Part shown: positions 49,334 to 63,470 of the stretch, piece after piece | Position numbering within the stretch: position 1 is the stretch's first letter | Layout: each line of letters opens with the position of its first letter | Origin: Octopus sinensis | Lineage: Eukaryota | Assembly: GCF_006345805.1 (NCBI RefSeq) | Contig: NC_043001.1 | Coordinates: 127,348,001 to 127,412,000 of the forward strand | Reading direction: 5' to 3' | Length of the DNA: 64,000 bases | Position numbers and translations under genes: made by a program | The notes under the pieces: generated by a model | Told to the model about the DNA's origin: nothing | Seen by the model: the letters and a program-made list of their open reading frames with translations, nothing else | Database searches by the model: none

Positions 49334-50519
49334 TATTGAGTGATATGAGTACACCAGGCACATGCATCACAACCATATGTGCGCGACATGGTGATCTCGT
49401 ATCAAGATAAACAGCGCATGACCTTGCAGGTGAGGCCCGAGGCTATAGTAGAAGACACTTACCCAAGGTGCCACGTAATTGGACTGAACCCAGAACCGTG
49501 TGGTTGGTAAGCAAGCTACTTACCACACAGCCACTCATTATTATTATTATTGTTGTTGTTGTTGTTGTTGTTGTTACGAAGGCGGCAGCTGACAGAATCT
49601 CGGCACGCCAAGGAAAATGCTTCGCGCCATTTCGTCCGTCTTTGCGATCTGAGTCCATATTCGACTTTGCCATTCATCCTTTCGGATCGATGAAATAAGT
49701 ACCAGTTGAACACTTGGGTCAATGTAATCGTGTAGCTCCCTTCTCCAAAGTTTCAGACCTTGTGCCTAGAGTAGAAAGGATTATTATAATTATTAAGGCG
49801 ATGAGCTGGACAAAATGCTTATGGCATTTCGTGTCTTTACGTGGTCGACTTTGTCTTTCATCCTTTCAGGGTCGATATATTAAGTACGAGTTGAGCCCTG
49901 GTGTCGATGTAATCGACTATTCCCCTCCCTCAAAATTTCAGACCTTGTGTATATCGACGAAATGATTATTGCTCAGGCGGTTAGCTGGCAGAACCGTTAG
50001 CTCGCTGGACAAAATTCTTAGTAGCATTTCGTCCGTTTTTACGTTCAGGGTTCAAATTCCACCGAGGCCGAATTTGCCTTTCATCTTTTCGGGGGTCGAT
50101 GAAATAAGTAGCATTTGAGTTTTCCATCCCACAAAATTGCTGACCTTGTGCCAAAATAAGAAATGATAATTACTACTGTTGTTGTTGTTGTTGTTGTTGT
50201 TTATTAGACATCTTGCACGTATACATGCATAATTTATTATATACATACAAATATAATATGCTGACACCGACAAATGTTAGAAGACTTCTGTTGCTTCATA
50301 GATAAATTACGATATAAACGCTGCTGCCTGTTGATTTATGATGACATGGGCTTACCAAAAGGACGTTAACAGCTGACTCTCTCATTTGGAGTAACTGTTC
50401 TTTAATTATTTCTACTGGGTTAAATTGGAAATTAATGGAGATTACCTCAATTATTTTCTGCATGTTCTTATTTGCTTTTTATTATTATTCGCATGTGAAA
50501 TATCTCGGTCCTCCCCTTC

Positions 50520-51365: not shown

Positions 51366-51676
51366 ATATTCTGAGAAAAAGTATTTTTTCACCACAACAA
51401 AACATTTACACATACTCAGAAGTGTCTCTGTGGTAACTTGAGCAACTACAAATAACAGCCAAATCTCTCTTAAAACATACCCTTTCATCAAACGTAAGAC
51501 ACAGATTTACAGTATTTCAGGAAGAAAAAAAAACTATGTAATGGGTCTGCTATATCAAAGGCAACACTGGGCTAAATAAAACACAGACATACTTCACATT
51601 AAAAGATTATCTACCAAATGATACTAATAAACAATAATAAATCTCTGAGCGAGGTATTAACAGTAACTGCTCTATA

Positions 51677-52160
51677 ATATAAGCGGGATCAGCCATCTGA
51701 ATGTGGCTAGGGACAGGGCGGGGTGGTGGGGGTGTTACTGATGCATTTAGCCCCAGGCGACTATCGACGTCACCAGAAGAGCCGACACCATCACGGTGTC
51801 CTTGCTAGCCTGCAAAGGGAGATCAGCCTCACCGAAGATACGGATGCTACACACGGATTTTCTACGCCAGTGACTGTGGTTACTGTGAAAATCTATATAT
51901 ATCTGGCCTGTACAGGAAGTCCCTCAGCGAAGAACGGTGCTTGCCATGCGCTGACAAGAGGCAAATACCTCGAAACCGGTCCGTGTGTAGCATCCATATC
52001 TTCGGTGAGGCTGATCTCCCTTTGCAGGCTAGCAAGGACACCGTGATGGTGTCGGCTCTTCTGGTGACGTCGATAGTCGCCTGGGGCTAAATGCATCAGT
52101 AACACCACTACCACCCCGCCCTGTCCCTAGCCACATTCAGATGGCTGATCCCGCTTATAT
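51677..52160. mobile_element. Foldback: 181-bp inverted arms (51677-51857 / 51980-52160) around a 122-bp spacer; probable Penelope-like inverted pLTR
   Basis: About 3 mismatches between arms. Spacer contains TATATATA (51894-51901) and a hammerhead fold. Confidence 0.75.
51945..51987 (+). ncRNA. Minimal hammerhead ribozyme (G8A-mutated core) of Penelope type
   Basis: CAUGCG-CUGACAA-GAGG(CAAAUA)CCUC-GAA-ACCGGU-C-CGUGUG. GUC cleavage predicted after 51981. Confidence 0.65.
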
Positions 52161-52199
52161 GATACTAATAAAGTTGACCGTATATCTTCGAAATTTCAT

Positions 52200-52427
52200 T
52201 CCCTGGTAAATCTCTGTGTATCTTAAGATTGTTCAGGCAGAGTGGCCTCCCTTACTTCAAGACCTCAAAATTGTGCGGCTCGACCTCGTTTTCGAGGTTA
52301 TTTTTGTAGTAAAAAAAGAGTTATTGTGCAAAAAATATACTTTATTTGGTAGCCGAATGATTACTGAATATTTTGTACCTCATAAGTCAAAATCGGCAGC
52401 TCAGTTTTCGAATCTATAAGGAACATT

Positions 52428-52589: not shown

Positions 52590-53125
52590 ACAGGCGTAGA
52601 AATGGCCGTGTGGTAAGTAGCTTGTTTACGAAACACATGGTTCCAGGTTCAGTCCCACTGCGTGGCACCTTGGGCAAGTGTCTTCTACAATAGCTTCTAG
52701 CCGACCAAAGCCTTGTGAGTGAATTTGATAGACGGAAACGGAAAGAAGCCCGTCGAATATATGAATATATATATATGTATGTGTGTGTATATATGTTTGT
52801 GTGTCTGTGTTTGTCCCCCCACCCCAACATCGCTTGACAACCGATATAATCGACTTAATCCGTTTGTCTGTCCTTGTTTGTCCTCTCTGTGTTTAGCCCC
52901 TTGTGGGTAGTAAAGAAATAGGTATGACTGATGAATACCGACCTGGGGTTAAACAACAATAAAAATGACGTGTATGTTTACGTTCCCGTAACTTAGCGGT
53001 TCGGCAAAAGAGACCGATAGAATAAGTACCAGGCTTACAAAGAATAAGTGCTGGGGTCGATTTTCTCGACTAAAGGCGATGCTCCAGCATGGCCACAGTC
53101 ACATGAATGAAACAAGTAAAAGAGT
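52590..53125 (+). mobile_element. SINE family A interrupted by a SINE-B tail plus an inverted local copy
   Basis: A sequence breaks at ~52845 and resumes at ~52972. Confidence 0.8.
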
Positions 53126-53476: not shown

Positions 53477-53799
53477 TTATATATATGTAATTTAATATAC
53501 ACAGTATTTAAATGTGAGTTACTATGCGTTTCATGCTCTGATAGTACAATAGTCGGGCAAGCTTGTTTAGCGTGCTTAATCGTGCAAGTTTTCAGGTTCA
53601 AAATAAAATCATGTGTATATTAAATGATATTTGTCTTGTAGGATAGACTGCTATTTCGTTGATCCCACCAATAACGGAACTGTACACGACAGCTAGCTAG
53701 ACAGATAGGTAGATAGATACACACATACATATATTTTATACACACGCACACACACACACACTAAAGACACACACAAACATGTGTGAGTGTGTGAGTGTG

Positions 53800-53949
53800 T
53801 GACTGTGTGGTAAGTAGCTTGCTTACCAACCACATAGTTCCGGGTTCAGTCCCACTGCGTGGCACCTTGGGCAAGTGTCTTCTACTATAGCCTCGGGCCG
53901 ACCAAGTGGATTTGGTAGACGGAAACTAAAAGAAGCCCGTCGTATATGC

Positions 53950-54015
<66 letters not shown>

Positions 54016-61979: not shown

Positions 61980-63470
61980 ACACCATTCCCTCTAACATAC
62001 CCCTGAAGAAATTCTTTAGACTCAGGTTATAGACCGAAACAGCTCTTTTCCCAGTCTGTTCTCCCAGTTTTCAAACAGAGAAACAGATCCCTCGCAGTCA
62101 ACTATCGCCCAATCTCACTCACTTTCCCTATCATTAAAGTGTTTGAAAAGGTAGTGAGATCCTAAATTCAAACCAGCATGGCTTTCACTGCAGTAGGGAC
62201 TATCTAACACAGTTCTTACACCACATTGATGATCTCCTTAAAGCCTTGGGATCAGGTTCGAACTCTGATGTCATATATCTTGACTTCAGTAAAGAGTTCG
62301 ATAGAATCGACCATAATATCCTACTGTCAAAATTGTCAAACGTTGGAATCCGTGGAAAACTACTACACTGGACTGAGTATTTCCTGGGGAACAAAACACA
62401 TGTTATGATCGTTGGAATCCACTCAAGCCCAGCAAAGGTCACCAGTGGTGTCTCTCAGGGAACTGTCTTGGGCCCGCTTGTCTTTATAGTCTATATAAAC
62501 AATCTTACCAGTGTCACAAAACACAGAAAAGTGAAAATATTCGCTAAAGACGGAACTGAACTCCAGTCTGATCTACATGCCGTAAGTCAATAGGCAGACA
62601 AAAATAATATGCAACTAAACGAGGGAAACTTTGAGCTAATGCTTTTTGGAAGAAAGACTATGCTAAAACAGCCATACACGCTCCCTTCAGAGGAACCGCT
62701 CACATCATCTAATAACATCAGAGACCTCGGAGTAACTGTTGATAACAATCTCAACTGGAGTGCCTACATCAACACCAAGGTCGATATAGCTCGTAGGATG
62801 AGCTCCTGGATCCTAGGTACCCTCCGGTCCAAAGAACAAGATGTCATCATTCCTCTTTTCTCCTCCTTTGATACGGTCATACTTTGAATACTGCTGGCCC
62901 CTGTGGTCTCTCCATACAAAACGAAACATTTTGAAAACTGAATCACCCCAGAGGTCATTCACTAAAAGAATTAAGGGCACGACTGATCTCGATTATTGGG
63001 ATCGCCTTAAAGCATTGAAACTCTATTCTCTCCAGCGCCGCCGTGAGTGATACATCATTTGCACCATGTGGAGAATATACCACCAGCATTGCCCAAATGA
63101 CCTCAACATTAGCTTCAAAATTCATCCAAAGCTAGAACCACGGGCCATATGTCCCCTACCCAATTCAAGATCACAACACATAAATACACTGCAACACAAT
63201 TTCTTTTCTTCAACAGGCCCTATCCTATTTAACAGATCAAAGAGGAACAGGATCCCATCACCTTTAAACGGGATCTGGACAAATTCTTCAAGGAAATGCT
63301 TCTGTTTGTTCCCAACCCTACAAGATAAGCCACCTATACCTGGATACAATTCACTCAACAAGAATTCCCAACTCGAATGGACCATGATACCACAAAACTT
63401 GACTTTAAAATAATTTAACTAATCCTATCAGGTGGTGCTATTAAGTTAGACATGGCATGGACCAATCTTT
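61980..63470 (+). pseudogene. CR1-like LINE reverse transcriptase, decayed 3' half
   Basis: NYRPISLT, QHGF, DVIYLDFSKEFDRIDH, SGVSQGTVLGPLVFIVYINNL, IRDLGVTVDNNLNW, EYCWPLWS, RLKALKLYSLQRRRE; multiple frameshifts and stops. Confidence 0.9.

What the first reader, a model, noticed from the sequence alone, without database searches (positions are those of the whole stretch)
51618..52172. 181-bp foldback whose arm starts at a predicted hammerhead cleavage site
Seen: GC-rich near-perfect inverted arms 51677-51857 and 51980-52160. The spacer has a TATA box ~50 nt upstream of a hammerhead fold (51945-51987, helix III ACCGGU, GUC site after 51981). The duplicated arm begins within 2 nt of that site. 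A 14-bp direct repeat ATGATACTAATAAA brackets the structure (51618-51631, 52159-52172). Established: Penelope-like elements carry hammerheads in pLTRs and often insert with an inverted pLTR copy. Inference: the inverted arm is a cDNA of the self-cleaved RNA, so ribozyme cleavage set the repeat boundary. G8A is plausibly later CpG decay. If transcribed, the hairpin is a strong ADAR/Dicer substrate.
Basis: partly seen in the sequence, partly recalled or inferred. Interest (0 to 1): 0.75.

Follow-up and report, generated by a model that had tools for sequence, protein, structure and literature searches.

The report
Penelope-type hammerhead retrozyme, head-to-head insertion
This foldback is one of at least 76 scattered insertions of a 360-base non-coding repeat that carries a predicted hammerhead ribozyme; it is likely a Penelope-type retroelement pasted in head-to-head, and its arm ending beside the predicted cut site is likely a coincidence.

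Summary
The locus is a 535-bp insertion of a dispersed 360-nt non-coding unit. Across 76 insertions the outer ends fall at two fixed sites. The inner ends scatter: 2 of 117 lie near the hammerhead cut site, 3.6 expected. 88 of 117 arms read through that site. This is the known architecture of Penelope-like elements (two reverse-transcription start sites) and fits a non-LTR retrozyme. The hammerhead is supported by covariation (C3-G8 and U3-A8 subfamilies, palindromic helix III variants in sister families). This copy's C3·A8 mismatch is inherited within a subfamily (17 of 67 insertions), not CpG decay in place. No autonomous partner was found. Cleavage, circular RNA, transcription of this locus and editing are untested. 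Verdict: new member of a known kind, with one testable twist: a mismatched-core subfamily that kept spreading.

The parts
51618..51631 (+). Left copy of the 14-bp target site duplication (last 2 nt overlap the element's tail end)
   Evidence: Identical to 52159-52172; single copy in 13 of 14 paralogous empty sites
51630..51672 (-). Tail of the element (unit 308-350), between the two fixed 3' ends
   Evidence: 99.6% match to unit 123-350 over 51630-51857; family ends at unit 303-307 and 346-352
51673..51857 (-). Inverted, 5'-truncated copy (unit 307 down to 123): the left arm
51853..51857 (.). 5-nt microhomology at the inversion junction (unit 123-127 reversed = unit 356-360)
51858..52164 (+). 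Forward copy (unit 1-307): spacer plus right arm; C3·A8 subfamily
   Evidence: 98% to the tandem unit of L003; subfamily
51894..51902 (+). TATA-like run, promoter function untested; varies between subfamilies
   Evidence: sequence; variants at unit 37, 38 and 44
51903..52023 (+). Predicted long rod extending hammerhead helix I
   Evidence: monomer fold z -2.9 (on L003); 14 of 43 consensus pairs with a change on both sides in at least one row, mostly from two sister-family rows
51945..51987 (+). Predicted type I hammerhead: C3 51951, A8 51956 (mismatch), palindromic helix III 51975-51980, predicted cut after 51981
   Evidence: motif; 115 family copies; sister families
52159..52172 (+). Right copy of the target duplication (first 6 nt overlap unit 302-307, 5 of 6 matching)
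51400..52400 (.). Older dispersed repeat that the element interrupts (flanks 51400-51631 and 52159-52400)
   Evidence: paralogues 73-89% identical over the flanks

Best explanation
The locus is a head-to-head insertion of a dispersed 360-nt non-coding repeat with a predicted hammerhead, likely a non-autonomous Penelope-like element (non-LTR retrozyme) copied by a borrowed RT/GIY-YIG enzyme. Shown: two fixed outer ends 45 nt apart (unit about 307 and about 352), scattered inner ends, a 14-bp duplication, preference for (TA)n, both arms from the same subfamily, and arms longer than one unit. Inferred: a Penelope-type enzyme nicks both strands of an AT-rich target 14 nt apart. Each 3' overhang primes reverse transcription on the same uncut (multimeric or circular) RNA, one at each start site. 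The two cDNAs stop at variable points and are joined by microhomology, here ACGGA. The hammerhead likely serves to make monomers or circles, not to set insertion ends. The C3·A8 core is inherited and is predicted to be weak or dependent on a partner ribozyme.
For: 154 exact hits of a 22-mer in G000, reversed control 0. 76 distinct insertions mapped: 46 simple inverted, 25 single-orientation, 5 complex and left out of the end counts. Of the 46 inverted, 38 have both ends intact, and all 38 pair one 300-307 end with one 344-352 end; 8 have one eroded or other end (p 4e-12 against 50:50). Inner ends are scattered, with 2 of 117 at unit 120-130. 88 of 117 arms span the cut site and 56 of 117 exceed 360 nt. 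Partner arms differ by 1.3%, against 4.0% to arms of other insertions (39 insertions). Exact microhomology of 4 nt or more occurs in 6 of 46 junctions against a null of 1.6% (p 9e-5). A TA run lies within 20 nt of an end in 65 of 71. Sister families share the architecture (L127, L163), and their best-kept parts are the hammerhead and the tail. In vitro, an anole PLE cuts and extends both strands, starts RT at two sites that bound the tail, and inserts normally with dead-hammerhead RNA (PMC11167929). Young RT+GIY-YIG elements anchored in (TA)n exist in G000.
Against: No autonomous element shares sequence with the unit among 46 GIY-YIG loci examined. The two hits were separate insertions of sister families, and only 150 of 5029 candidates were scored. 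Rfam hammerhead models do not hit. The tail (45 nt) is longer than the 30-40 nt reported and has no stable predicted fold. Most junctions (40 of 46) lack 4 nt of exact microhomology, and 9 have filler. Only 5 of 122 insertion-private variants are shared by all units of an insertion, so a single circular template is not shown. This locus holds one hammerhead and less than one forward unit, so it would fail Li et al.'s two-unit criterion for an 'active' retrozyme.
Confidence: 0.85

Rival explanations
1. One reading: the tail-primed cDNA ran off the 5' end of a self-cleaved RNA (unit 125) and then annealed by 3 nt, so cleavage set the arm boundary.
For: Position 125 lies inside the ambiguous 123-128 junction. 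2 of 44 tail-ended arms stop at 123 and 126.
Against: No family enrichment: 2 of 117 against 3.6 expected, 1 of 115 without this copy. This copy's core pair is mismatched. L011 joins at the same ACGGA with the other TCCGT, which is not a cut site. PLE insertion did not need cleavage in vitro.
Confidence: 0.1
2. Inverted arms arise by self-priming (snap-back) on an antisense template, as proposed for rotifer Penelopes, rather than by priming on both target strands.
For: Proposed in PMC3846280 (passage). 6 of 46 junctions have inner ends within 10 nt of each other, 2 of them identical.
Against: 40 of 46 junctions, including this one (123 and 356), are asymmetric. The arms always end at different outer sites, and partner arms differ by 1.3%, consistent with equal age.
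Confidence: 0.08
3. A long-TIR MITE, or an assembly fold-back artefact.
For: The arms are 98% complementary. No contig spanned the whole locus. Some family loci are duplicated in the assembly (L011/L012, L030, L083).
Against: Arm lengths run from 36 to 1376 nt, with tandem units and variable inner ends. The arms differ at 3 sites and only one carries the tail. The 14-bp duplication is confirmed by paralogues, and another insertion has an 11-bp one.
Confidence: 0.02

Closest known systems
Metazoan non-LTR retrozymes (Cervera & de la Pena 2020, PMC7229834; Li et al. 2026, 10.64898/2026.07.22.740005)
   Same: Non-coding unit in the 150-450 bp range (mussel 350-390 bp), type I hammerhead with short palindromic helix III, tandem copies, target duplication longer than 4 bp, structured monomer, PLEs in the same genome.
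   Different: Dispersed head-to-head insertions in (TA)n dominate here rather than long arrays. A subfamily carries an uncompensated C3·A8 core. Circular RNA and cleavage are not shown here. Unit GC is 50%, at the edge of the reported '<50%'.
EN+ Penelope-like elements and their pLTR/tail structure (Craig et al. 2021, PMC8557442; Arkhipova et al. 2013, PMC3846280; Frangieh et al. 2024, PMC11167929)
   Same: Inverted 5'-truncated copy, partial tandems, a tail at one end only, two fixed ends, AT-rich or microsatellite targets, hammerhead upstream of the ends.
   Different: No RT/GIY-YIG frame, no sequence-matched parent found, tail 45 nt instead of 30-40, and short complementarity between element ends and target at both junctions of this copy, whereas PAc starts at a site not homologous to the cut DNA.
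U3-A8 hammerhead variants of Schistosoma Cercyon PLEs (PMC4209133) and others (PMC3088659)
   Same: Natural C3-G8 to U3-A8 covariation; one subfamily here has it (8 of 67 insertions).
   Different: Here the half-way state C3·A8 is itself an amplified subfamily.
L1 twin priming (recalled, no call)
   Same: Both target strands prime on one RNA; cDNAs joined by microhomology give an inversion.
   Different: Here both priming sites are fixed and the two arms overlap in sequence, producing a fold-back.

Membership tests
Non-LTR retrozyme | Type I hammerhead in each unit | tested here: met
   Motif in 115 unit copies; C3-G8 majority, U3-A8 covariant, helix III palindromes vary across sister families. 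Rfam models did not hit. This copy's 3-8 pair is mismatched.
Non-LTR retrozyme | Unit of 150-450 bp in tandem repeats | tested here: met
   360-nt unit; arms up to 1376 nt, 56 of 117 longer than one unit. Met by the family; this locus has under one forward unit.
Non-LTR retrozyme | No coding capacity | tested here: met
   Longest stop-free frames over the locus are 111 and 93 aa; the 111-aa one has no Pfam hit, the 93-aa one was not scanned.
Non-LTR retrozyme | Target duplication longer than 4 bp | tested here: met
   14 bp here, 11 bp in L024; unreadable in (TA)n sites.
Non-LTR retrozyme | Self-cleavage of the RNA | not testable with these tools
   Needs in vitro transcription.
Non-LTR retrozyme | Expressed as circular and linear monomer RNA | not testable with these tools
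   Only assembled contigs were available; they cannot show ends, strand or circles.
Penelope-like element (structure) | Inverted 5'-truncated copy plus optional tail at one end | tested here: met
   46 of 76 insertions simply inverted; 38 of 38 with intact ends have the tail on one side only.
Penelope-like element (structure) | AT-rich or microsatellite target | tested here: met
   65 of 71 with a TA run within 20 nt of an end.
Autonomous Penelope-like element | RT + GIY-YIG open frame | tested here: not met
   None in the insertion; family insertions consist of unit sequence only.
Derivative of an identified PLE pLTR | Sequence homology to an autonomous element's pLTR | tested here: inconclusive
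   No match in 46 GIY-YIG loci, drawn from 150 scored of 5029 candidates.
MITE | Fixed TIRs, uniform structure and short fixed TSD | tested here: not met
   Variable arm lengths and inner ends, unequal outer ends, TSDs of 14 and 11 bp.

The most novel reading that the evidence does not exclude
The family is a natural read-out of the Penelope mechanism. One enzyme dimer primes both target strands from two start sites on a single circular RNA (38 of 38 intact inverted insertions pair unlike ends). The C3·A8 subfamily is a catalytically crippled half-way state between C3-G8 and U3-A8 hammerheads that kept transposing by borrowing an intact core in trans through the shared palindromic helix III, or without any cleavage.
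Probability: 0.3. Interest if true: 0.6.

Novelty: new member of a known kind. Interest (0 to 1): 0.36.

Why it matters
The class and the insertion architecture are in print. What this family adds is a young set of copies (1-2% divergence within subfamilies) with three hammerhead core states side by side. That makes an open question testable: does hammerhead cleavage matter for PLE or retrozyme spread in vivo? The strict pairing of unlike ends also gives a genome-scale match to the two RT start sites seen in vitro. If read through, the 535-nt insertion would fold into a roughly 185-bp duplex (-428.5 kcal/mol), but nothing here shows that this locus is transcribed.

Tried and rejected
Rfam scans of the locus and of five related loci: no hammerhead family hit; other hits were microsatellite-driven or below their gathering scores.

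Search for an autonomous partner: GIY-YIG search and 46 loci, no pLTR homology. The match next to the PLE in L135 is a separate sister-family insertion in a TA run.

Expression: no RNA holder listed. Four runs guessed to be RNA, from one study and kept as contigs, hold family and sister-family pieces but no junction-spanning piece; not used as evidence.

Orthologous empty site: contigs in 3 of 4 runs skip exactly 541 nt, but only 10-11 letters fit both sides rather than 14. That points to paralogues, so an empty allele is not shown.

Rooting the three core states with two sister elements was unresolved, so the order of changes, or recombination, is open. The tail has no significant fold. An 18-nt motif search for a sister family gave one real hit (L163) and one chance hit in an unrelated LINE-like sequence (L162).

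Host gene: 49 of 89 long frames scanned gave a transposase hit, an RT hit and one sub-threshold DUF hit; short exons would be missed. Earlier findings: none. A paper on tolerance of the 3-8 pair was not held, so the activity of C3·A8 itself comes from no call.

Full report
Observation. The locus has no second copy in the window. A search of the own genome with spacer plus right arm gave 106 matches from 40 scored of 1509 candidates, many spaced 360 nt apart. A tandem copy (L003) defines a 360-nt unit. On it, the window reads unit 350 to 123 inverted (51630-51857), then 356/1 to 307 forward (to 52164). The 14-mer is a target duplication: 13 of 14 paralogues of the interrupted repeat join the flanks with one copy. 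The host looks like an octopus from its flanking repeats; that is recalled and was not tested.

Family architecture. An exact 22-mer has 154 hits, of which 100 were listed. I mapped 100 loci to 77 places and dropped L012 as a duplicate of L011, leaving 76 insertions: 46 simple inverted, 25 single-orientation and 5 complex, the last left out of end counts. Outer ends fall at unit 300-307 or 344-352. All 38 inverted insertions with two intact ends pair one of each, 20 one way round and 18 the other; 8 had an eroded or other end. 65 of 71 have a TA run within 20 nt of an end, so this copy, with a readable duplication, is an exception. Partner arms differ by 1.3%, against 4.0% to arms of other insertions, so both arms come from one source. 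Some 'single' insertions carry short inverted stubs below my threshold (for example L005 and L018).

Test of the cleavage-boundary idea. Inner ends spread over the whole unit. 2 of 117 lie at 120-130 where 3.6 are expected, and 1 of 115 without this copy. 88 of 117 arms read through the site and 56 exceed one unit. The sample leans to copies holding unit 171-192 or resembling this copy, which would not hide arms stopping at 125. The junction here has 5 nt of microhomology. L011 uses the same ACGGA with the unit's second TCCGT at 136. Exact overlaps of 4 nt or more occur in 6 of 46 junctions against a 1.6% null; most junctions have 0-2 nt or filler. For this copy alone run-off at 125 remains possible, and 2 of 44 tail-ended arms stop at 123-126.

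The hammerhead. In 115 copies the core boxes, stem II and the ACCGGU palindrome are nearly invariant while loop II varies. The family is young, so this alone is weak. Stronger evidence is covariation: a U3-A8 subfamily (100/99 support) and sister families, one 63% identical, that keep the core and stem I and change helix III to other palindromes. Their best matches to the window are the hammerhead (81% over 58 nt) and the tail (85-89%). The consensus rod has 14 of 43 pairs with two-sided change, mostly from those two sister rows, in an alignment of 10 chosen rows. The monomer folds at z -2.9. Rfam did not recognise it.

The 3-8 pair. By insertion, 42 are C3-G8, 17 are C3·A8 and 8 are U3-A8, of 67 with a core. 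Genome-wide exact patterns give 96 (14-mer, control 3) and 27 (16-mer, control 0). CpG decay in C3·A8 insertions is 13 of 410 sites. Five insertions with two or more cores have C3·A8 in all of them, and the state goes with other diagnostic bases. It is therefore inherited. One copy in a C3-G8 clade (L081) does look like real decay. On the tree C3·A8 is not a supported single clade (3 changes), and rooting failed. The literature I saw says U3-A8 is active (PMC3088659, passages) and that C3G or G8C single changes abolish cleavage (PMC11167929). That C3·A8 is weak is my inference, as is rescue in trans through the palindromic helix III, which extends the dimer model in PMC4209133.

Mechanism. Shown: fixed paired ends, variable inner ends, the duplication, same-source arms, read-through. 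Inferred from PMC11167929: a PLE protein nicks both strands of AT-rich DNA and starts RT at two sites bounding the tail. Here the target overhangs also show short complementarity to the two ends, 5 of 6 nt on the right and 2 nt on the left. Whether the template is a circle or an uncut multimer is open. Five private variants are shared by all units of their insertion (up to 5 of 5 in L099), and 117 are not. Young RT+GIY-YIG elements with a CxxxxCxxC linker, (TA)n-anchored ends and a U3-A8 minimal hammerhead exist in G000, but none matches the unit, so the helper is unidentified.

Comparison and novelty. It works like a PLE insertion and meets the sequence-testable criteria of a non-LTR retrozyme. 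It is not an autonomous PLE or a MITE. Cleavage and circular RNA were not testable. Searches for Octopus with hammerhead and retrozyme or Penelope listed no paper describing this family, judged from listings and, for PMC8557442, passages. Searches for G8A, C3U or C3-G8 listed none on an amplified C3·A8 subfamily. Repeat databases and subscription journals were not searched.

Papers seen: PMC11167929 parts 1-2 of 4; PMC4209133 parts 1-2 of 4; PMC7229834 parts 2-3 of 6; 10.64898/2026.07.22.740005 parts 1-3 of 5; passages of PMC8557442, PMC3846280, PMC3088659 and PMC7151607. No supplements were read; species tables there could already list this family.

Verdict: real, explained, a new member of a known kind; interest 0.36.

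Noticed in passing
L134:674-4377, L132, L142, L131, L133: Young GIY-YIG PLE family with intact 781-aa RT+EN frames. L132, L134 and L142 also have an overlapping upstream frame of 470-479 aa with no significant Pfam hit. It has a CxxxxCxxC linker (Neptune-like by PMC8557442's description) and a U3-A8 minimal hammerhead about 70 nt before its (TA)n-anchored end. A two-frame EN+ PLE may merit its own look.
   Followed up: partly
L135:6936-7274; L127:45-420; L163:1390-1669: Sister retrozyme-like families (63-85% identical) inserted in (TA)n with the same hammerhead and/or tail; L127 and L163 show the same two-end inverted layout. Contig depth over the tail was about ten times that over the unit body in DNA runs, hinting at much larger related families.
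   Followed up: partly
L083; L030; L011/L012: Whole insertions with flanks appear twice (1334-nt and about 1800-nt spacing, or on two contigs): local duplications or assembly redundancy.
   Followed up: no
L080:1141-1327: A truncated copy flanked by (GATA)n rather than (TA)n.
   Followed up: no
window:2206-2592 and 62147-62593: Transposase_1 (partial DDE) and RVT_1 fragments.
   Followed up: no
window:50988-51198, 52590-52800, 53787-53997: Dispersed SINE-like repeats around the locus, with an inverted relative at 49434-49537.
   Followed up: no
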